DNA of 64,000 nt from Saccostrea cucullata (GCF_032062105.1 NW_026931568.1:310001-374000); one strand, 5' to 3'. Positions 11,962 to 50,445 are shown, counted from the first letter of the stretch. Numbers and translations: made by a program. The notes: a model not told the origin generated them from the sequence alone.

Positions 11962-14900
11962 TCAGTTTCTCCTTGGAGGTGGGGGCCTGGCTGGTGCCGA
12001 GGGTCGACTAGGTTTTGAACCTTCAGAGTTTCCTTTCCCTAACCTTTTATTTAAAGCACTAGTAAGTTCATTGTTAAAATTATTATTGCCCACTGGTCTT
12101 TGAGTATTCATTGTATTACTTTGAGTATTCATGGTATTAACGTATATATGTTCTAAATCGGCAGACATTCTGCCTCTTTGAGGGACTGGAGGCCTGAGAC
12201 TGTTAAATGGTTCTGATTCGTATTCGGCTAAATCTCCCTGCATGCTCAAATCCTCCATTGACCTGCTGATACTCCGGGCTATGGTGGGTAATTCGGGGGG
12301 CGGTCTACGAGAATAAAAAGTCCGTACAGAGTCATCTGAGCTCTGACTGGCTGTTGATACATTTGACGTTTCAGACATGCGTTTGTGCTTTGCGAGTGGT
12401 GACTTTGGAGGTGCCCTGTTAGGGCGGGGTTTTGGGAGAGGGTCTGTTGAACTACCCGAGCTTTCTTGATCGGGTCTTTCAAAATTCTCATCCTCTCCAT
12501 CGTCCACTTTGATAAATGGTCTCTGTTTTCTTCGAACTGTTTGACCCAAAGCTGAAACCACCTATAATTAAAAGGAATGAAGATATTTTATTTTACCTGT
12601 TGATTTTAAAATTTTCTTTTTAAGTTTTCTTTGAAATCACCTCAATTTAAATTCACCTACTTGCAACCTGGGCAAAAATTAAACTGGGGCAAAAAATTTA
12701 CCTGCATATAGTAGCTGCCGAAATATATGCAATACACATTCAGATTGCAATACACTTTGTACTTTGGAAATAATCAATATGATCTATTTTTAATTTCAGT
12801 TATAATATGGAGCAACTAGTATAAATTAAGTCATCAACCTTACCCTTGCTTTGCCTAGATAATCTCTTTTATCTACATTTTTGAGCAGTTCCTTTGGTGG
12901 ATGAAATATACAAGAATCTGGTAACTCTTCCAATTCAGGAGCTTCCTATATAACAATAAAATTTGTAAAGTTTGCATTGCCAGTTAGAGTTAATTCATAT
13001 GGGCCAGTGTAAAACAAAAGTATTTTACTATGTGCCACCGGCTCTATTTTAATTAACATTTTAATACAAGTACATGTGCAGAAAAAAAATAATACAATAA
13101 AAAATCAACTGACCTCCTCTACCCCATTTGATTGAACAACTGCATGTTTTAGAAGGGCTTTGGATTTTTTGGTTACTGGTTTACCGCTGCTGTGTTGGTA
13201 TTCTATCAACTCTTGTATTGAAGGAAAAGAAAAACCCTCAAACTTCCAGTAACTCTGTGAAATTCATGAAATGTCAAAATAACATACTGAATTGTTTTTT
13301 TTTTAGTAATTCACATTTACATATACATGCAATATTTATCAAGGTCTCTTATCACTAAGCCAAAAAAGCTCCAAGGTTCAGAATGAACATTTTATACACT
13401 GGAAGGATGAAAAGTGGAGCACCTGGCCATGAATGAGTTTCATTTTACAAAATGATAAAATAAAAAAAAAGAAAATAGAACTGGATATACATGTTTAAAT
13501 ATTCAAATACCATGAAAATACAAAGAAATATTTTTTTAACGTAGATATTGTCAAACTGCTTAACTTTCTAAAAATTACCCTCATATAAACATTTCCATAT
13601 TAACAAATTCATTAAATATTTTTCATTTTCTTTAAATGATATATACATCTACCTCATCATCCTGTATAATGAGAATATGTCTGTATCCTTGCCACAGGAC
13701 AGACAGGACGTACTGTAATGTGTTTTTCTTCTTGTTGAGACTCTCTCTGACTAGGAAATCACCTTCCTTGCGTAACATTTTCTCTGCCTCTTGCCTCGGT
13801 AGTCTACCGTGATACCAACTCTGACTGCGTAGAGAGTGTCGCCTCTTTAATGCTGAGACATCTTTTTTCATCTCCTGTAATTAATTTGCATATTGTATTG
13901 ATATCAGTTATTAAAGTAAAATGGCAGTGCCAAATTTACTCTATATGATGAATTTTTAAATTCTATTTTTTTTTTCAATGTTCAATATATCAAGTACATC
14001 TATCAATTTGTATATTTTATAAATAAATGATATATGTAATATTACTTCAATCTTTCTAATTTAAGATCACTACAGTCTATCTAGCAGGATGAAAGCAGTC
14101 TTTATACATAAAATTCTACATGAAAATACAGTGGAACTTGTATTGCAACATGAACACATTTTTAGTGAGTTCATGTACACAAATATAATAATCCACATTC
14201 CAAGGTTTACTTTCCTCAAATAACTAACAGATACTAATTATGCTCAGACATAGAAGCCTAATTGAATTAGAAATTTTCAGAGTTCAAACAGTTTTTTTCT
14301 CTTTAGAATACAAAGCCTGTAAATTTATAGATAAAATACTTTATACTAAGGTTGTGTGCACTTTTACTGCACACTGTGTCAAGTATATACCAGTAATACT
14401 TCCTCACTGACCTGTAATTTTTGTAGTGCCTGGATACAGTTCCTTCTGGTTGTATCATCATCTTCCTGTTTCATGACTGCGATCAGAAACTCCTCGGCTT
14501 CTTGTCCTCTACCCATCATCTTCATCGTGGTGGCCTTGGCAATCCATATCTGTTAGGAAAATGTGGAATATGATATACACTGTTTTATCAGAAAGATGTG
14601 ATTAGCAGTATTTAAAATAGATTCATATGTGATATTTTCAGATTCTTAAAATTATTTAATGAAAAAAAAATTAAGTATGAATGCCTGCAGTATTTTTATG
14701 AAAATTATGAATATAAGGTGAAAAAGAGACATTAAACATTAAGTTCTGTACCAGCATATGATATACATGTATGTATGCTTATGAAAACTGTCCTCGGTTT
14801 GTAACATCACCAATTTTTCTTCCCTATCTTTCAAGTAAATTACAGTATATATTTCAGGTGCACGTGCACTGTGTAAACGGGTCTTGTGCATCAATTAACA

Positions 14901-38000: not shown

Positions 38001-38606
38001 GAACTTTTGGTTTTTTATTGTTATTCTAACAGAGATTATATGAAATACTCAAAGACTGTGAGAGGTTAACTCATATCTCTTTGTTGGTCAAATGGAGTAA
38101 AGCAGTTAATATTGTACGAGTCACAGTACAAAAGCCGCTCGTGTGCAATAATATGTAGAGAAGAAACAAATCCTCTGTGATTAAAAATAAATTCTTCTAG
38201 AGTATAAAAAATTGGAAAATCAAATGCTTAAAAGCATGAGCGGAAAGAAATTCTAGATAAAATAAAGCGTATTTGCTGTGAATAAGTGCAAAATTAATGA
38301 AAATATAAGCTATAAATAATTCTCAGGGGCAATATAAACAAACATATAAACCAGGCTTTAAGGCAACTGATTCTACATGGAAAAAGTTTCTAAACACAAA
38401 ATAAAAAGTAGGACGACAAATAAGGCCAACGAAACACATGAAACAGTAGTCTAAAATAAAATAAAATGCTTAGTGGTAATCATGGCTAGGATTTTGCATA
38501 ATCATCCATAATGTTACTAATTTACAAAAGCTTGGCATTGCATTATATTTCTTCCACAAAAAAGCTTCAGTATAAATGAAAACAATTTCAAAAAATCTTC
38601 TAGTAA

Positions 38607-41600
38607 TTAATGAAATGGAGTGGTATGTGTTTCTTTACAATGACATAATTTGTTTATACACTGCCATTCCGTATAACACAAATTGATGTGTCGTCGACAG
38701 TCCCCGGGTGTTACACATCCTAGAGAAAGAGAAAAATTAAGAATGATATATTTATCATAGTTATTATCTAAGTGTATAAACATTGACCTTTACATTTTAA
38801 ATCATGCTGCTTTGTAAAAACTAAAATGATTATGTTTAGGTTTATGTCCGAGTACCCTATCATTCTCAACACCAGTGATTTCAGGAATGGAGGTGGTTCG
38901 AATTTTTGCCAGATGAATTGTTTGTAATATATACATAAAAACCGCATGATATTACATCTGCATTCACCAACAAAAATCAAGCAGTCAAACAAAAGAATAA
39001 TATCATACTAGTAAGTGGATTTGACAAATATTGTCGTTAAAGGGATAAAAAATTTGTTTTTCAAACTAAGCGTTGAATACGTAACAACAGCTCATAAATG
39101 TTGAAAACTTACTGGCAGGTTCTGTAGTGGTTGGAATGGTCGTGGTCGTTGGTGGTGCTGGTGTACTAATGAGTTGATCTACATTAAATGTATGTAGATA
39201 AAATTAAACAAAGTACAAATGTAAACATGCATTTAAGAAATAAACAACAATGTTAAGAAGTTCTCTGGGAAATGAACTTTTAGTTGGTCACGTGATCAAA
39301 TCCTGTGAAGCCCGAAGGGCTTCTCAGTAGATTTGATCACGTACCAACTAAAAGTTCATTTTCCAGTGAACTTTTTAACATTGTTGTTTCATACTTATAT
39401 TTACATTTGAAACGAAAACATTTTGAGTTAAATTGTATTTATTACACGAACGGGCCAACGAACTGCTATGTAACGACGCGCAATAACCTAGAAGTTGTTT
39501 GGTCAAATCGTGTTGTGATCCGGTCGCGCTATGACCTCTGACCCCCAAATGAAATTCACACAGAATTGAACGTATTTTCTCTTCAATAAGTTCATCTAAG
39601 AAAGATATTTGCAAATGTAAATATTAGTGCTTAATCTACTTTAAAATCACTAATTTACGTGGCTGGTTAATTTTCGTTGTTTTCGAGGTATGGAGAACCC
39701 AACGAATTCATGACCACCACTAAATGTAAAATTTTGCATGCATTACTACTTAAGTTAACATTCTCCAACAACAAAATCAAATTCCCCCAAGCCAATATTT
39801 TTTATCGAACCTGGAAAATTTAACCCCACAAAATATGTGATTTTACAGTATTAAATGACATTTATTTATGTTTGAACTTAACCTGGATTAATGCCTCCAA
39901 AGTCTCCACAGGTTGGAAAGTTGTCTGGAACCTTTGGTTGGTTTTCGAAAGATTCATTCAGAAGAACAGCAATTCCATCTGCTACGAGTGGAAGCATTTG
40001 GTAAGAGATGGCCCACATCCCTGGGTTATCAACCTTGATTCGTGCTATGACGTAACCACCATACGGGAGTGTAATTGTGTCCTTCAGAGGAGGATCTGCG
40101 AGATTCAAACCGGTGTCATTTCCGTTGAACCAATCTGGATCGCTCCATGTAGCACCATTACAGTTTTCATCTTCAGTAGTGTTCCCTCCACAGTTGATGT
40201 CGGTATTCTCCGAAATATACTCTCCAGTAGTTTCATTGTAGTTTGCATATCCTACCTTTAAAACCTCGAAAGAATGGCCATGCATATGAATTTGAACATC
40301 CCATCCCTTTTGTTTTCCCATGTTCAAGAAAACAAAGTTAATCGTGCCGTTATAGTTTGCATCAATTATATTGACACATGTACATTCATCGTTGTTCTTA
40401 CATTCTTCTGTGGAACACAAACTTTTAACGTGTTTGTAATGGGATTTTGCTGAGATAGGGGGTAATAAGTATTTCATGGGGCCAGAAACGGCAAAATTTA
40501 AGAAATATTCGTGTAGAGAACCTTCTGAAGAAGGTGCATTGGATATGAATGCCGTCGTTGAATCTATAGTTAAACATTGAAGTTCTGGCTCCATGGGAAA
40601 AGACTTGACTGGACAATTTAAAATGGCACATTGTTCTGTCGGTGTGCACGGATTCCTCGTAGAAGATAAAGACACAAACATTTCATCTGCTCCGGCATAG
40701 TGCAGCACTGCTTCAGCAGGTATCGAGTTGATGACATTTTGTGCCACTCCGCGAATTTTGAAATTACCAATATCTGCCTTGGCTTCCAGTATAAAGTCAA
40801 ATCTCTCTCCGGGGTTAACTATTACAGATTCTACATCAACTGGTTTGATTAAACGAGCATCAGAAGACACAACAGTCAATGTGTGGTTGTCCACAGAAAC
40901 TCTGTAAGAGTACATAGAAGCTGCATTTATAACTCGAAATCTGTAGAGTTCGCCTTGATCAACATCAAATACCTGTATTGGTGCTTCATTATGCTTTCCC
41001 GTATCAGGGTTATAGTATCTTCCTCTGCCATTGATCAGAGAAGAATGTGCATTCCAGATAGAATCAAACGTTAAAATTTTACTTGATTTGAGATTTTCCC
41101 CTACCTCAGAAGAGAGAAATTCTCGGTCTGCATTAAAGTCATGATTCCAGTCCTGCAGCTGTAGAATGAATTCTCCTGAAACATTCTGCAGATGTGAAGG
41201 AGGATTTCGTTCTCGCACTACTAATGCCCCGTACAACCCTTTTCCCCTTTGTAAACCTGATTGAGAACGGTACCAGTAAGTGCCGCCCTGACCGACGTTG
41301 AAAGTATAAGTAAAAGATTGACCAGGATCAATGGGACATTGCGACGCATAACTAGCTCCATCCATGTTTGGCGTGCCTCTTTGTTCTATCCCATGCCAGT
41401 GGATGAATACTGTTTCTGACATGAGGTTATTTTTGACGTGGACAACAAGAATCTGATCCTCATAAGCTATGATTGACGGACCAGGTAAAGAGCCATTTGC
41501 TACAACAACCACTATCTGCTTCTCAAATCCATCTGCTGTGATAACTTCGCTAATGTTAACAGGCACAGGTAAAATGGGGTCTGCGGAGTATTTATAAAGA

Positions 41601-41773
41601 GAACCATTACTGGGGTAAACAGCTTTTTCCTTCTCATGAAACATGGTCAATTCTTCGGTAATTACCAAAGAGGTTTCGCAGATGTTTGCATTCTCATCGC
41701 ATTCAAATGAGGAGACGACATGCAGCAGGGATAATGCAAGAAGAAAAATCACTGCCGTCTTTGCCATCTGCAT
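38607..41773 (-). CDS. Secreted laccase-like multicopper-oxidase homologue lacking most Cu ligands, predicted to continue into a Thr/Pro linker exon and a cvSI-type Cys domain exon
   Basis: Large exon 41773(or 41767)-39883 encodes a signal peptide (MAKTAVIFLLALSLLHVVSS) and three cupredoxin domains. Donor CAG|GTTAAG at 39883. Phase-1 exon 39178-39113 (DQLISTPAPPTTTTIPTTTEPA). Phase-1 exon 38719-38607 (RCVTPGDCRRHINLCYTEWQCINKLCHCKETHTTPFH*). The laccase homology is very strong, but the splice to the 3' exons is inferred. Confidence 0.8.
39269..39362. repeat. Palindromic hairpin repeat with GCCCGAAGGGC apex
   Basis: AAATGAACTTTTAGTTGGT...GATCAAATC pairs with GATTTGATC...ACCAACTAAAAGTTCATTT. 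Confidence 0.8.
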
Positions 41774-42268
41774 GAAATCAAGAAACATTAAGAAGAGGGG
41801 AAAATCCCACCACGACCTTGACAAACTTTAAATTTATTTTAAAAAAAACAAGAATAGAAATAATATATTACTTTCAACACAAACTGCATACATAAATGGA
41901 AAGTTTTATTTTTATCTGTCGAAATAAAATAAATAACAACTGACTGATTTATTGTACGTTGTTTGACGCCCCTTTGAAATTTTTCCACCCATATAGGGAC
42001 GTCACCAAATACCGGAAAAGGACTTTTTCTCGGCATTCATTGCCAGTTTGCAGTGAGGGTTCTTTATCGTACCAATGCCTATCGTGACATGGGGACCGAG
42101 TTTTAAAGGTCTCATGCGAATGACCCGCAACTTTCACTTCAAAGTGCAGAACACTTGGTGAAGGAACAGTTGATACCTATTTTTTTTTTAAAAATAGACT
42201 TAGGTCAGTCGTGGCATTGATTCGAAGACACAACCTTTTGATCATGAAAACTTCGAACAGGTGGAAAA

Positions 42269-44077: not shown

Positions 44078-45166
44078 TTATTTACAACGGCATTGTTCCT
44101 GAATGCATTCCCATTCTGTATAACATACGCCAGTGTGTCGTCTGCAGTCCCCGGGGGAAAGACACCCTAAAAAAGAGGAAACAGTGAGCAAGCATATTAA
44201 TATTAAAAGTCCTCAGAGATAAAAAAAAAATAGTATTACGCATATGTTTATCTAAAGTTATAGCAAACGATAATTTATCGGCTGTAATATACCCGTCGAT
44301 ATTGTAAATCATCTTTTGTTTTACAATAGAAGTAATGAATTTGATAATGACGTCATTTATTGAATTATACTCACTGTATACGTCAGTTATTGGAGTACAT
44401 GTACACAGGTTGTTCTGGCAGGTGAGGGTAGTGTGATGAATACACCCCACATCAATACATTGGTACTTGCTGACACAAGCTTCCCCGGCAATCAGGCCTA
44501 AACATAAATAATTATAAGTAGAAAATAATAATAAAAAAAATTAAAATGTATTTTATTTCATTAAAAAATATATTCGATTGTTTATAAACCTGTCACATAT
44601 AAGCCATAAAGATTAATTATATAAAAATCAATCACTGAACGTATAAGTTTATTGGAATTGACGTACTGGGTAAACAAATACAAAAAGTAATATTTTAGTT
44701 CTATTTTCAAATGAAGGATTAATAGATCAATTCATGGATTTTTATATTAAACCTCAGTTTTTAAATCATACCAACATTTATACAGCTAAAAGCGAAGTAC
44801 CAGTTTTAACAAAATGAACCAAAGAATTTGCAAAAAATTCTTATCGTACCAGCCCTTGCTACAATTTCACCGGCAGCAGACTTGTGACTTTATTTGTACT
44901 GCCGATCACTTCTATGATTTCGTACTATTAGTTTTGACTTTACAAAGATTCAAACTCACAACTTTCCTAAGCTTTGTCGATGAGATTTTCAAAGAACTCA
45001 AACATTTGTTTATTTAAGGTCATTGAAAGCTTGGAATTGAGCTACTGAAGAGGATCTTTTGAAATTGTCTTTGCTGATATTCATATAAAAAAATCATAAA
45101 AATCAATAAAGATGAATTTTACTTACCAAGGAATGAGAGTATGAGAGCAGCTGTTAAAATCTTCAT
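44078..45166 (-). CDS. Secreted 12-Cys serine protease inhibitor, cvSI-2-like (MEROPS I84), copy 1
   Basis: Exons 45166-45127, 44497-44375, 44166-44078: MKILTAALILSFLGLIAGEACVSKYQCIDVGCIHHTTLTCQNNLCTCTPITDVYRCLSPGDCRRHTGVCYTEWECIQEQCRCK*. Confidence 0.85.
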
Positions 45167-45465
45167 GCTAACGTTGATGAAGAAAACAAAGGAATAATAG
45201 AGGTCTAAATACTGTTTGACCTTGATTATAAGTACCTTATCGAGTTTAATACACCCTGACTCTTTGTCAAATCAAGTGGCTTGATGACCAAATTGTTTCT
45301 TCACTAAGATACCAATTTATTTTGTGGTCAACGTTCGCATTTTGCCATTTTAGGACTTCATAACAAAGCTTAGTTCAGTAAGTATCAACAAGTTAACGTT
45401 ACTTTAGTTCATTATATTTGTTGATACTACAGCATATTATCGTTTTTTTTTAGATTTGAGAAAAG

Positions 45466-48072
45466 ATGACGAAACTGCATCTAAGTGTCTTTGTATTTGC
45501 TGTGCTTTTTGTTGGTAACGTATATGTAGCTTACTCTTATAATATTATCATTCTCTTAAATAAATTGCCACTTCTAAATGGAAGTTCAATTTAATGACTA
45601 ATATTGTCACTTCTGAATGAATGCATTATTTAATGACAGTTAACTAAATAAAAATTGAATTTGCATTTATAAGACTGAAAATAAAAGAAACGTTAATGTT
45701 TCAGGATTTCTGAAGTCTGAGGATTGTACGGTAAGCAGCGGCTGTATAGACACGGTGTGTAACCACCAAACCAACTTAGAATGTGTTCACGGCATCTGTA
45801 CTTGTTCACCACCACCCTACGACCAACGTAAGTAAATCCTACCACAAAGTGAATTCTAGAATATAAGTAAATGATGTAACAAATTACATTTATGTAATTG
45901 TAGTTGAATTCTACTTTAAACGGGAGTAAAGTAAAGAAAAACACATGAGTTTTACATCGTAAGTAACATGTTTTTATGGTAATACCTAAATATATTCTAT
46001 GGCATCAATACCAGTAAGAATTCTGCGATATACAAATGTGATTTCTGTGAGTCCATTCTGTAAAACCTCATTAAAAAATTATTCCAATTTATTACTTAAA
46101 AATTCTCAATTAGTTTCAATATAAATTCTAAATCATTCAAAACCGAAGGTATCTGTTGAAATCCAATGATCAAAACTAAAATGATATCGATTTGGATACT
46201 AGGCAATCACTTTCTTTTCAGTTTTGTTCACATTGCGTAAATGTAATTCGTTTTAAAGCATTTTAAAGACGGAGATTAAACTTTTAACTGAATTAAGATA
46301 CCTATACGTTCTGTTTAATGATAAATGCTTACATTAAGAGTAAAGGTCTTCCATAACCACCTCAACAAAAGAATTTTCAAGATAGTCAGACTTCGCACTT
46401 ACCCGTTTGTTGCAAAAGTAGGTCGATCTAACCAGGTATACCTTAAAGAATTCCAAAATAACTGCGGATTTTTGTACACATTTTCTATTTTTACTAAACA
46501 GGTGTCTTATTATGTCTAAATAGGGATCTTAATGTTAGGTAACACACTGTGAAGAAATAATTCGACATACTCATCAAATTTTCTCAAGTCTGTTTAGTCT
46601 GGTCTGTTTGGTGAAGATTGACTTAAGAAATTGCGAGAAAGAACTACGAACGATAGTATTGTTCTCCCGCCTACCTCTAAGTCAATTCTCAAAAGTTAAC
46701 ATATTCGAATGATTTTCAAATTTTTTTTATAGATATTTATATGAATTTTCAATAAACGTTACTTATTTGGGATACCAAAGAGAGATAACTCTATAATTTT
46801 GTTAAACTTGTGTTTTTCACTATAGAAATCAACAGAAAACGGAAAATATTTTTAAAACATCTTTCCCCCCCGTGAAACAAAAATTCCTTTTTCCAGGTAA
46901 TATGGACTGTCATTTTACAAATTTATGCCAAAGCTTTTTGTGTTTCACGGGGGGGGGGGGGGGGAACATATGTTTATAGACAAAAAACGAAAGAAATGCT
47001 GATTTTTCACCAATTTTAAAGCTATTTACAACTAAATAATTGTATTTTATTAATTTATATATGTTTTATTTATTTGCGTAAAACATAAGAAAAGATATGA
47101 GATACATTTTATCATATTTAAGACTATTTCAAAATATGGTGATTCTTGAAAGTTCGATTTCACTAGAAAATATCGTCTACCCCCCTTATTTCAAGAGCTG
47201 GAATTAATGATAATTTACTATCTAGCACTGGAATTAAAATGATTAATCAATTACCATAGAACGTTCTTTGTATTAAACAAAGATTTAATGGCCAAATTGC
47301 CATTAATATTGAATTTAATGGGTGCAAAAAGTAGGCGGGAATCAAGAGTTAGAGTTCGTAGTTCATTGAGTCAATGACCGCTTAAGATTTGACTGATTAT
47401 TTAAACTCCATGACACATTTACATGTAACGTTTGTAGCAATTTTCAAATACATTTTATATTTCATTTTGAATGTTTCCAATTGTTGTCATTAGTAGCAGC
47501 TACAGTTCTGATCTTTTGATATGTTAATGAAATGCTATCGTCTACAAATCTGATGAATATTTCTTACTTTCAAATCTCATATATTGACTTTGTAATTGAA
47601 TTGTGATTAATTTTTTATGCTTCCAAAGGCGTTCTTCAATTTATATTCTTCAACAATCTCATGACAGTCATTTGAATAAATCATGGGGATATTCATCAAT
47701 AAAATTTGATCTGCTGACATAAAATCAAAATTAAAAAAAATCAATCAAATTATCTCTAGCTGTAATGCATATCTTATAAAACACTCTTAAAAAATTTCAT
47801 AAACTATTGTGACGGATAAATACTACTCATTGAAAAAAGTATTTCAAAACAGTACACATCGATAATACTAGTAAACAATTGTATCACAAGTGTTGATTGT
47901 AGTATCCTTGCCACCCCTTTAAGAAAAATGATTTTTCAGTAGTTTTAAATCATATTTAATATATCATCTTTGAATCATAGGATGTTTGGAGAAAGGTGAT
48001 TGTGATAGACATATCTATGACTGCCCCACAGACTGGAGATGCATCAATCAAAAATGTAGATGTGGCAATTAA
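45466..48072 (+). CDS. Secreted 12-Cys serine protease inhibitor, cvSI-2-like (MEROPS I84), copy 2
   Basis: Exons 45466-45514, 45705-45827, 47981-48072: MTKLHLSVFVFAVLFVGFLKSEDCTVSSGCIDTVCNHQTNLECVHGICTCSPPPYDQRCLEKGDCDRHIYDCPTDWRCINQKCRCGN*. Same phase-1 introns and 123-nt exon 2 as copy 1. Confidence 0.85.
46641..47364. mobile_element. MITE copy 2, in intron 2 of cvSI copy 2
   Basis: GAACTACGAACGATAGTATTGTTCTCCCGCCTAC ... GTAGGCGGGAATC...CGTAGTTC. Confidence 0.7.
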
Positions 48073-50445
48073 AGGTCCAAAGGTAATTTCTACAAAAAAT
48101 TTAATGTTCTTTTAGGAAAAATCTCGAATTCATTGTAGACAATATCTTACTGATGGAAATTCATAAGCAAAACATTATTTTAAAAAGGAATTAATTTTTG
48201 TCTCTATTCTTTGCAGAAGACCTCCCGTCACAGATGCTCATTATCAAGTTTTCGTCAATTTATCTGAAAAAATAAAGAAAAGCGATTTTTACAATGTGTT
48301 CCTGTCGACTTCTTATTATAGAATATTCAGAAAAAAAAATTCCTTTCTGTTTTCAAATGTGTTAATATAACACAGTAAATAATGTTATCATTGAATCAAT
48401 TGATGAGAATTTTTTAAAAAAGAAACTATCACACGAAACATAGTATGAAATGGCAAGGTAAATTTGTAAATATTACATAAGAAAATAAAAGAGACAGAAA
48501 TGTCTTTTTACATGTAAAAAAATGAAGATAACGAATACTGATCGATTAAAAAAAATCAATAAAAAATAAAAATTATTTGTTCAAAGGGAATTCCAGAGGT
48601 GGGAATAGGTGCCTAGTAAGAATCCCCTTTAACTGGTCACAATCGCAGTGAGCTTTGTGAATTCATGAAGGACTCACCGTCTAGTTTGTTAGATAAGCAA
48701 GGGCATCAACGATAGTTTGAAAAGTGATGCCTTATATTTCCATTTCATTGTGAAATAAAAATGTTAATGAAGATTTAAAAACGTTAAAAACTAATAGATT
48801 AAAAGTACACTAGGCCTCCCACGTTAATTTCAATAGTTCCCGTCCAGACCTCAGACACAAAGACAGCCGTACGAAATTTACATGCATATTAGACTTTGTT
48901 TGGCTCCTGGCCTTTTGCATGTCAAAATTTACATACCGGGAAAATTGTCAAGAAATCAAACCACCTAAACTTTCAAAGACTTATCACAGAGAAAACAAAT
49001 GGAAATGTTAAAGGATGCATTGTGTGGTTAAATCTAATATAAAAACAAAGGCCTAGCATTATGTGTTTGACAAAACTTCCGAAATACGAACAAACGATAG
49101 GTTACATGCATATCTGCTAACAAGGTCATTATAATGACCATAAAATATACGAAATGCTGACTATAAATGAGATTGTTAAATTCCTGTAACATCAACTTAT
49201 TAATGAGTATTATTCCTTGCTTTTAAAATTTGAAAATCGAACTCAGAACAAACTCTTGAGTAGCGAGTACATAGGGAGACATAAAGCCATAAGCAAGTGA
49301 TATTGATTTGTGATACTATTAAAACATAAATAAGGAATGTTGACGATAGAAATGCTGAAATCATCCTGTTTGTGATACGATGCAGTTGTTAGTTGGCTTG
49401 TTCTTTAAAATACAAAAAGAGACCAGCGTGAGAGGGAATTGGACGGTCTCAAAGAGCTAAAGCCACGAATTATCAATATCCGCCTTTAATTTTAGACAAA
49501 AATTCTAAAATCACGAAGCCTTTCATATGTTATTTTGTAGAGCACAATGTCATGGTACGCTACATATAATTTTTTGGTACACAGGCCATCGTCTTTAGCA
49601 CATGCGCAGAGACAAGTATACCTATGAAGTTAAAAACTGCCTAAAAACGCCGATTTTACGGCAGTTATTTCGAAATTTGAATGTGGCCACACTCAAGTAC
49701 CCTTTCCAAACTTTGCATGCATGAAAATATTATATATAGGCACCTTCATGCAAAATATCCTAGAGGTACTCGCGTGTGGCCAATATGAATTTTACATTTT
49801 ATGAATGTTGAGCTTTCAGAAATTAAAGCAAGATCCTCCATTTCAGTAGTAATTATATGTTCATTATATGCGTAATTACCCTAAATTAGTTATTAGTATA
49901 TCAGATTTATTCTTGATAATCATATTATCCCATATTTGTCAATAATTTTGTGATAGAATATCTTAAATTGTCATTTAATATGTGTTCTTTCATATAAAAT
50001 TTAAAATTACGCTCTTTTCTTTCATGCTTACGTACATGATACAATGATGACGTCATAATCTGACCGTGAGGTCTACTGCATCTGAGCAAAAATAATTTGA
50101 AGAAGTTTGTCAAAATAATTTTATAATTAGAAAAAGGTGTTGAGAATTGATTTGTGTCGAGTTTCCAATATGTTACCAGCACTAGATGTTGAACGTAATA
50201 CTTGTTTTAAATCTTGTTTATAAACATAAAAAAAAATGCCTAATCCGAAGTTGATATCTAAAATTCATGCAACTCCATGTGTATTCTAGGATACATAAAA
50301 AGTAAATAGTTTTATTTGTTTACACACTGATATTTCGATTGAAGAAATATATAGCATTTATGAATAGTATGCATTTAAGATTACAGTAAATGTTAGTTAG
50401 CTAATATTATTTTAAAACTCGAAGCTCTAAAACGCATGCCCCCCT

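What the first reader, a model, noticed from the sequence alone, without database searches (positions are those of the whole stretch)
39883..41773. Intact laccase ORF that has lost the whole type-1 Cu site and most type-3 ligands
Seen: L1 HWHG is kept. L2 WYHSH has become WYRSQ. L3 HPxHLHGH has become VQIHMHGH. L4 HCHxxxH has become SYQMLPL. Established: laccases need 10 His + 1 Cys. Only 4 His remain, namely both type-2 ligands and two type-3 ligands. The ~630-codon frame, signal peptide and structural Cys are intact. Inference: this is a maintained pseudo-oxidase or a residual mononuclear metal-binding protein rather than a decaying pseudogene. Its single-exon body suggests retroposition.
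Basis: partly seen in the sequence, partly recalled or inferred. Interest (0 to 1): 0.7.

Follow-up and report, generated by a model that had tools for sequence, protein, structure and literature searches.

The report
Oyster copper-less laccase with inhibitor tail
This oyster gene is spliced and conserved but has lost 7 of the 11 residues a laccase needs to hold copper, so it is predicted to be a dead enzyme that likely serves as a secreted carrier for a small protease-inhibitor-like module copied from the neighbouring gene, and its Pacific-oyster counterpart lost a different set of those residues on its own.

Summary
The ligand loss is real: 4 of 11 copper ligands remain (both type-2 His, two type-3 His), and the type-1 site, axial Met included, is gone. 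The gene is not single-exon. It has four exons, and its spliced product equals a RefSeq Saccostrea cucullata protein. It ends in a Pro/Thr stalk and a six-Cys exon copied from the adjacent cvSI/I84-like inhibitor gene. It is not a pseudogene: all three introns are skipped in contigs of a related organism's runs, dN/dS is 0.30-0.42, 86 of 95 conserved non-ligand positions are kept, and the predicted laccase fold is confident. Recent retroposition is refuted, because 18 own-genome loci have an equally uninterrupted body. Orthologues show parallel decay: Ostrea edulis and Crassostrea virginica keep 10/11; Magallana gigas keeps a different 4/11; a single origin of the two dead forms is rejected (p-AU 0.0007). 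This argues against one shared residual metal site. The M. gigas orthologue appears to be the best-detected laccase in a published whole-oyster proteome. Copper-less multicopper-oxidase relatives are known (insect MCORP, plant SKU5); this is an independent mollusc case with a captured domain. Its function is inferred, not shown.

The parts
41945..42147 (-). 5'-UTR exon (its upstream end may lie beyond 42147)
   Evidence: Contig of RNA run X13 joins 41767 to this stretch; donor GTCAGT and acceptor GCAG
39883..41767 (-). Main coding exon: ATG, predicted signal peptide, three cupredoxin domains; ends at a phase-1 donor
   Evidence: Pfam PF07732/PF00394/PF07731; spliced translation equals P0122; model pLDDT 90.2, pTM 0.88
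41393..41401 (-). L1 motif HWH, kept (H123 type 2, H125 type 3)
41261..41269 (-). L2 motif, His-Ser-His replaced by Arg-Ser-Gln (two type-3 ligands lost)
40280..40297 (-). L3 motif VQIHMH: type-1 His lost (V491), H494 (type 2) and H496 (type 3) kept
   Evidence: these codons unchanged in contig X1
39971..40006 (-). L4 motif: HCH replaced by SYQ, type-1 His by Leu, axial Met by Ile
   Evidence: these codons unchanged in contig X1
39113..39178 (-). Exon 3: Pro/Thr-rich stalk, phase 1 on both sides
   Evidence: Joints 39178-39883 and 38718-39112; AG/GT ends; low pLDDT at 640-646
38607..38719 (-). Exon 4 coding part: six-Cys module, copy of the last exon of the neighbouring cvSI/I84-like gene; 3'-UTR runs on to at least 38346
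   Evidence: 61 of 88 nt identical to exon 3 of the neighbour, same Cys spacing 5-6-5-4-1, same phase; E 5e-8 in own genome; contigs cover 38346-38718
44078..45166 (-). Neighbour A: three-exon, 83-aa, 12-Cys cvSI/I84-like gene (45127-45166, 44375-44497, 44078-44166); likely relative of the donor of exon 4
   Evidence: 79 of 83 identical to P0205, named 'serine protease inhibitor Cvsi-2-like' by NCBI; exon 2-3 joint in contigs
45466..48073 (+). Neighbour B: three coding exons, 88 aa, 12 Cys, second cvSI/I84-like gene, divergent from A
   Evidence: joints 45377-45454 and 45827-47981

Best explanation
This is a four-exon oyster gene under purifying selection whose laccase-like product lacks 7 of 11 copper ligands, so it is predicted to have no oxidase activity and likely acts outside the cell as a folded, glycosylated carrier that holds out, on a Pro/Thr stalk, a six-Cys module copied from the neighbouring cvSI/I84-like protease-inhibitor gene. 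Steps. (1) Shown: ligand loss, exon structure, splicing in a relative, dN/dS below 1, scaffold conservation. (2) Shown by tree and synteny: one orthologue each in S. cucullata, S. echinata, O. edulis, C. virginica and M. gigas, all with stalk and tail. (3) Inferred: an intact, uninterrupted laccase came to lie beside a cvSI cluster in the oyster ancestor and captured a last exon; every ligand is still present in O. edulis or C. virginica, so the simplest reading is an ancestor with all 11. (4) Shown: the Saccostrea and Magallana dead forms do not form one clade, so the heavy loss happened twice. (5) From established laccase chemistry: without the type-1 Cys and the His-Cys-His bridge there is no electron entry or O2 reduction. 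(6) Inferred and untested: function now lies in binding, most likely by the tail towards proteases in host defence, with the body giving size, stability and retention.
For: Ligand strings: window HHRQVHHSYQL, S. echinata HHRQVHHAYQL, O. edulis HHHHHHHHCQH, C. virginica HHHHHHHHCHD, M. gigas HYHSHSHKSNE. The M. gigas string is the same in 15 of 15 cluster members examined. Orthogroup support 100/100 with ligand columns removed; dead forms as one clade rejected, p-AU 0.0007 and 5e-5 or less for three such topologies. Synteny: a fused M. gigas model (P0152) begins with the orthologue of neighbour A. dN/dS 0.30 (95% CI 0.16-0.61; 310 codons), 0.37-0.42 with transition bias; no indel over 1847 nt. 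Non-ligand conservation 86/95 (window) and 91/95 (M. gigas), Cys 12/12. Fold: pLDDT 90.2, Z 38.8, rmsd 2.2 A over 457 residues to a fungal laccase. Tail kept with six Cys in all five named species. 10 N-glycosylation sequons, no hydrophobic anchor after residue 40. Protein evidence for the orthologue: PMC7848083 Table S1 row 'laccase-4 [Crassostrea gigas]', 702 aa, 78.4 kDa, 14 unique peptides, 175 spectra, against 16, 3 and 2 spectra for the three other laccases listed; P0151 has the same name, length and monoisotopic mass 78.44. I84 members inhibit subtilisin-type proteases (PMC9198434 introduction).
Against: No activity, copper content or binding was measured. The tail is only half of an I84 protein (6 of 12 Cys); PMC9198434 says the two halves differ and it names no reactive site in the passages read. 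The neighbour's I84 identity rests on an NCBI name and on matching gene structure, not on an alignment with cvSI-1/2. The protein evolves faster than its intact sister paralogue (tree distance 0.141 against 0.087 between the two Saccostrea species; 0.77 against 0.37 to M. gigas), so constraint is relaxed. dN/dS uses 40 of 77 listed differences, from one contig, with no intact-laccase control. The proteome row is matched by name, length, mass and pI, not by accession, and concerns the orthologue. O. edulis and C. virginica keep 10 of 11 ligands, so some activity there is not excluded. Tissue and location are unknown. Sister laccases carry other tails (C-type lectin, weak ShK-like), so a tail may be an accessory.
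Confidence: 0.55

Rival explanations
1. The dead laccase body is itself the working part: it binds phenolic or matrix material, or partner proteins such as active laccases, and the tail is an accessory.
For: The whole 600-residue body is under constraint, which is costly for a mere carrier. 25 positions are invariant in six orthogroup rows but rare (<10%) in 107 intact relatives. MCORP is essential without activity and without such a tail being described (PMC4203857).
Against: Both Saccostrea proteins carry in-frame deletions of 7 and 9 residues in loops that, from recalled laccase structures, border the substrate pocket. The tail and stalk are kept in all five named species.
Confidence: 0.22
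2. The protein keeps one mononuclear Cu or Zn site built from the two type-2 His and the two remaining type-3 His, and works in metal buffering or weak redox chemistry.
For: H123, H125, H494 and H496 are kept in both Saccostrea species, and H494/H496 codons in contig X1. SKU5 and most MCORPs also keep both type-2 His (PMC4203857).
Against: The M. gigas orthologue has Ser at one type-2 position and Tyr at one of the retained type-3 positions; overlap of retained His between the dead lineages is 2 of 4, expected 1.45 by chance. H496 is invariant in all 148 rows of alignment A3, consistent with a structural role. MCORP held 1 Cu per 17 molecules.
Confidence: 0.15
3. A retrocopy or duplicate that is slowly decaying and has not yet been hit by a stop codon.
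For: About twice the rate of the intact sister paralogue; long Saccostrea stem of 0.27-0.33 changes per site; several in-frame deletions.
Against: dN/dS significantly below 1 (p 2e-4 to 5e-3). Three introns, spliced. 4.5% of point changes in this frame give a stop, yet the frame is open across 0.36 changes per site since the Ostrea split. Orthologues in five named species, one with peptide evidence.
Confidence: 0.03

Closest known systems
Three-domain laccases / multicopper oxidases, above all the intact oyster sister paralogues (own locus L002, S. echinata XP_061195268)
   Same: Three cupredoxin domains, 12 conserved Cys, uninterrupted coding body, 54% identity; fold Z 38.8 to fungal laccase.
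   Different: 4 of 11 ligands, no His-Cys-His bridge, no axial Met, two loop deletions, plus stalk and six-Cys tail.
Insect MCORP (Peng et al. 2014, PMC4203857; passages and discussion read)
   Same: MCO-like sequence that lacks the type-1 Cys, the His-Cys-His triad and most type-3 His, keeps both type-2 His, and is maintained by selection.
   Different: MCORP is insect-restricted and has a signal anchor; the oyster protein nests among intact oyster laccases, has no anchor, lost ligands twice within one orthogroup with 10/11 intermediates alive, and carries an I84-like tail.
Plant SKU5 / Bp10 ascorbate-oxidase homologues (as described in PMC4203857 discussion; primary papers not read)
   Same: Type-1 and type-3 ligands absent, both type-2 His present.
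   Different: Plant lineage derived from ascorbate oxidases; unrelated origin; no captured inhibitor exon.
Family I84 (cvSI-1/2) mollusc serine-protease inhibitors (PMC9198434; introduction and passages read)
   Same: Exon 4 is a phase-1, six-Cys exon matching the third exon of the adjacent cvSI-2-like gene.
   Different: Only one of the two six-Cys modules, fused to a 630-residue body instead of a free 8-kDa peptide.

Membership tests
Laccase / three-domain multicopper oxidase | Three cupredoxin domains with the laccase fold | tested here: met
   Pfam; model pLDDT 90.2; Foldseek and VIA-align to laccases
Laccase / three-domain multicopper oxidase | Type-1 site His-Cys-His | tested here: not met
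   V491, Y589, L594; axial Met is I599
Laccase / three-domain multicopper oxidase | Two type-2 His | tested here: met
   H123, H494; site assignment recalled from fungal laccases and consistent with the Fet3p legend in PMC4203857
Laccase / three-domain multicopper oxidase | Six type-3 His and His-Cys-His bridge | tested here: not met
   2 of 6 kept; HCH reads SYQ
Laccase / three-domain multicopper oxidase | Four Cu per chain and oxidase activity | not testable with these tools
   needs purified protein
MCORP / SKU5-type copper-less MCO relatives | MCO fold with type-1 and most type-3 ligands lost, both type-2 His kept | tested here: met
   Met for the window protein and S. echinata; the M. gigas orthologue keeps only one type-2 His
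MCORP / SKU5-type copper-less MCO relatives | Common descent with insect MCORP or plant SKU5 | tested here: not met
   Nested beside intact oyster laccases with 100/100 support; MCORP and SKU5 themselves were not in the tree
MCORP / SKU5-type copper-less MCO relatives | Membrane anchor (MCORP signal anchor per PMC4203857) | tested here: inconclusive
   Only the N-terminal hydrophobic stretch; highest 19-residue window after residue 40 is 1.47; no signal-peptide predictor was run to tell a cleaved peptide from an anchor
I84 (cvSI) protease inhibitors | About 70-residue mature peptide with 12 Cys in two exons | tested here: not met
   The laccase tail has 6 Cys only; neighbours A and B have 12
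I84 (cvSI) protease inhibitors | Last exon entered in phase 1 and holding six Cys | tested here: met
   Exon 38607-38719, spacing 5-6-5-4-1 as in neighbour A exon 3; feature from PMC9198434
I84 (cvSI) protease inhibitors | Inhibition of subtilisin-type serine proteases | not testable with these tools
   needs an assay
Processed pseudogene / young retrocopy | No introns, unlike its parent; neutral evolution; disablements | tested here: not met
   Three introns; 18 own loci with uninterrupted body; dN/dS 0.30-0.42

The most novel reading that the evidence does not exclude
A laccase that captured a protease-inhibitor exon in the oyster ancestor switched jobs: the tail became the business end, and the four-copper centre then decayed independently in each oyster lineage, leaving a living series (11 to 10 to 4 ligands, twice). 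The most abundant 'laccase' protein of Pacific oyster tissue would then be a non-enzymatic, tethered anti-protease of host defence.
Probability: 0.3. Interest if true: 0.72.

Novelty: new variant of a known kind. Interest (0 to 1): 0.52.

Why it matters
Oyster laccases are counted as phenoloxidase immune enzymes from domain content (PMC6289776, passage). If the best-detected 'laccase' of the Pacific oyster proteome cannot hold copper, such readings need revising; that protein fell to 0.49 and 0.57 of control (adjusted p 3.6e-4, 5.6e-4) in the resistant family at 12 and 26 h after OsHV-1 injection (PMC7848083 Table S1). The orthogroup is also a natural series for how pseudoenzymes arise: two single-ligand losses and two independent four-His end states in one gene, each of which can be expressed and assayed. 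It gives a direct test of whether retained type-2 His in MCORP/SKU5-like proteins mean a metal site.

Tried and rejected
Structure from a 10-sequence alignment was unusable (pLDDT 42); repeated with 148 sequences. First tree run did not finish. ESM Atlas on the tail gave only leads under 0.9, and Pfam has no family for the tail or for P0205. A complex prediction of the tail with subtilisin could not be run, so docking is untested. Ancestral states were not computed; the intact ancestor is read from the ligand strings. Split-site complementation, as proposed for bacterial two-domain oxidases in earlier findings, was rejected: in three-domain enzymes the cluster lies within one chain (PMC4203857), and the other degenerate paralogue in this genome (L008, HHYTHHHHSLR) lacks the same L2 His and type-1 Cys. 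Read depth comes from contigs and was not used to rank expression. Literature: searches listed no paper on copper-less oyster laccases; a search for six accessions found 0 papers; supplements of three C. virginica papers held no row for the orthologue; the supplement of PMC6289776, with a laccase tree and tissue expression, could not be read and may bear on novelty and tissue. Subscription journals were not searched. Earlier findings near the place, by sequence and by first word set were empty.

Full report
Observation. The frame at 39878-41788 (-) is open for 636 codons and holds the three Pfam Cu-oxidase domains. In an alignment with 120 homologues and 19 own-genome frames, the ligand string is HHRQVHHSYQL against the canonical HHHHHHHHCHH; 107 of the 120 homologues and 17 of the 19 own frames have all 11. 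The type-1 pocket is replaced by Val, Tyr, Leu and, at the axial Met, Ile. The assignment of His to site types is recalled from fungal laccases and agrees with the Fet3p legend in PMC4203857 (passages).

Gene structure. The gene is not single-exon. Joining 41767-39883, 39178-39113 and 38719-38607 gives, letter for letter, the 687-residue RefSeq protein XP_062570960 of Saccostrea cucullata (P0122), with AG/GT ends. A fourth, untranslated exon lies at 41945 to at least 42147. Contigs of a related, unnamed organism skip these introns: 38718-39112 in 4 of 4 runs laid, 39178-39883 in 2 of 4 (with a loose end matching exon 3 in a third), and the 5'-UTR intron in 1 of 4. These are contigs of another species at about 96% identity; they show spliced transcripts there, not levels or tissue.

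Retroposition. The own-genome search gave 74 matches. Of the 30 loci fetched, 18 have the whole body in one open frame of 603 residues or more (L002-L006, L008-L018, L022, L024, whose output was cut in the middle); some are probably two haplotypes of one gene. Exon-sized hits on other contigs point to intron-rich multicopper oxidases too. An uninterrupted body is thus a trait of the subfamily; any retroposition is ancient and says nothing about this gene.

Selection. Contig X1 covers 1847 nt with 81 differences and no gap. The first 40 of the 77 listed differences cover 310 codons: 18.7 synonymous, 21.3 non-synonymous, dN/dS 0.30 (95% CI 0.16-0.61, p 2e-4), and 0.37-0.42 (p 0.002-0.005) with transition bias. 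No intact laccase served as control. Of 95 non-ligand columns at least 95% conserved in 107 intact relatives, the window keeps 86 and all 12 Cys, but 4 of 11 ligands (Fisher p 1e-4); intact controls keep 84-95. The reference set was chosen for having all ligands. A model from 148 sequences has pLDDT 90.2 and pTM 0.88 and matches laccases (Z 38.8, rmsd 2.2 A, 457 residues); a deep alignment of intact relatives favours that fold, so this shows compatibility only. Against: the protein evolves 1.6 to 2.3 times as fast as its intact sister paralogue in three of four tree distances compared and 1.4 times in the fourth.

Orthologues. With ligand columns removed, the window protein groups at 100/100 with S. 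echinata XP_061184675 (87%), O. edulis XP_056010293, C. virginica XP_022328453, M. gigas XP_011455858 and unnamed relatives of the last (32 rows; 15 rows, mixture model). A profile search added no further orthologue cluster. Synteny agrees: a fused M. gigas model starts with the orthologue of the small gene upstream in the window. Ligands: S. echinata 4/11, same sites; O. edulis 10/11 (one type-3 His to Gln, shared with Saccostrea); C. virginica 10/11 (type-1 His to Asp; Glu in M. gigas); M. gigas a different 4/11, HYHSHSHKSNE, the same in 15 of 15 cluster members examined. Holding the four dead rows together is rejected (p-AU 0.0007; one search agrees). The Ostrea-Saccostrea grouping itself is only moderately supported (86/83). 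Every ligand survives in O. edulis or C. virginica, so the simplest reading is an intact ancestor and parallel decay. The two dead lineages share 2 of their 4 His, no more than chance (p 0.47), which speaks against one conserved residual site.

The tail. All five named orthologues end in a Pro/Thr stalk and a six-Cys module; among held proteins over 400 residues only this orthogroup matched the tail pattern. The module is 61 of 88 nt identical to the last exon of neighbour A (44078-45166, -), with the same phase-1 entry and Cys spacing. Neighbour A is 79/83 identical to a protein NCBI names 'serine protease inhibitor Cvsi-2-like'; a second such gene lies on the other strand. All 5 own-genome matches to that protein are in this window (a lower bound). 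PMC9198434 (introduction and passages) describes I84 genes as three exons with phase-1 introns and six Cys in each of exons 2 and 3, inhibiting subtilisin-type proteases. Local exon capture is the direct reading; whether half an I84 protein inhibits anything is unknown.

Protein evidence. Table S1 of PMC7848083 (methods, passages and table rows read), a whole-spat proteome of 3,214 proteins, lists 'laccase-4 [Crassostrea gigas]', 702 aa, 78.4 kDa, pI 5.71, 14 unique peptides, 175 spectra. The three other laccases have 16, 3 and 2 spectra; a fifth row is a 'laccase domain-containing protein' of another kind. P0151 has that name and length, monoisotopic mass 78.44, and pI 5.35-5.72 by four recalled pKa sets. 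The match is not by accession. The protein fell to 0.49 and 0.57 in the resistant family at 12 and 26 h; the other three contrasts were not significant.

Mechanism. Without the type-1 Cys and the His-Cys-His bridge, electrons cannot enter or reach the oxygen site, so no oxidase activity is predicted (about 0.9). What it does instead is inferred. I rank first a secreted, glycosylated carrier presenting the inhibitor-like module (0.55 for the whole account), then binding by the body itself (0.22), a residual metal site (0.15) and decay (0.03).

Comparison and novelty. Copper-less multicopper-oxidase relatives are known: insect MCORP keeps both type-2 His, has no activity and 1 Cu per 17 molecules, and SKU5 is described as similar (PMC4203857). 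This protein works like them in having lost the centre, but it is not a member by descent, and it is not a laccase by the defining ligands. New here are the mollusc origin, the parallel loss with living 10/11 intermediates, and the captured I84-like exon. Nine searches of the open library (listings and abstract starts seen) showed no description of it; subscription papers and the unreadable supplement of PMC6289776 may hold one. Verdict: real, new variant of a known kind, interest 0.52.

Noticed in passing
L008 (G000:C5627:15430-17283) and L009 (G000:C16580:332704-334419): A second degenerate multicopper oxidase in the same genome, 6/11 ligands (HHYTHHHHSLR) in a 627-residue open frame, about 5 kb from the locus of an intact paralogue (L006 and its broken copy); a separate lineage in the tree.
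   Followed up: partly
P0192 / P0121 (M. gigas 'laccase-3'): Third degenerate lineage, 8/11 with the type-1 Cys replaced by Ser; 12 of 126 representatives with a located L4 motif were non-canonical, so ligand loss recurs in animal laccases.
   Followed up: partly
P0181, P0165, P0029: Intact sister laccases are annotated with other added modules: C-type lectin, a weak ShK-like hit, Sushi plus fibrinogen. Some may be fused gene models.
   Followed up: no
window 44078-45166 (-) and 45466-48073 (+): Head-to-head pair of 12-Cys cvSI/I84-like genes with start codons 300 bases apart, both with spliced contigs.
   Followed up: partly
window 5493-6248 (-): 251-codon frame of the tubulin-tyrosine ligase family (Pfam PF03133, E 1e-40).
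   Followed up: no
window 11962-12378 (-): 138-codon Pro/Ser/Asn-rich frame with no Pfam match, probably an exon.
   Followed up: no
window 7911-8398, 9165-9573, 56140-56713: 21-base minisatellites and a degenerate satellite that produces a spurious Cys/Met-rich frame at 56378-56791.
   Followed up: no
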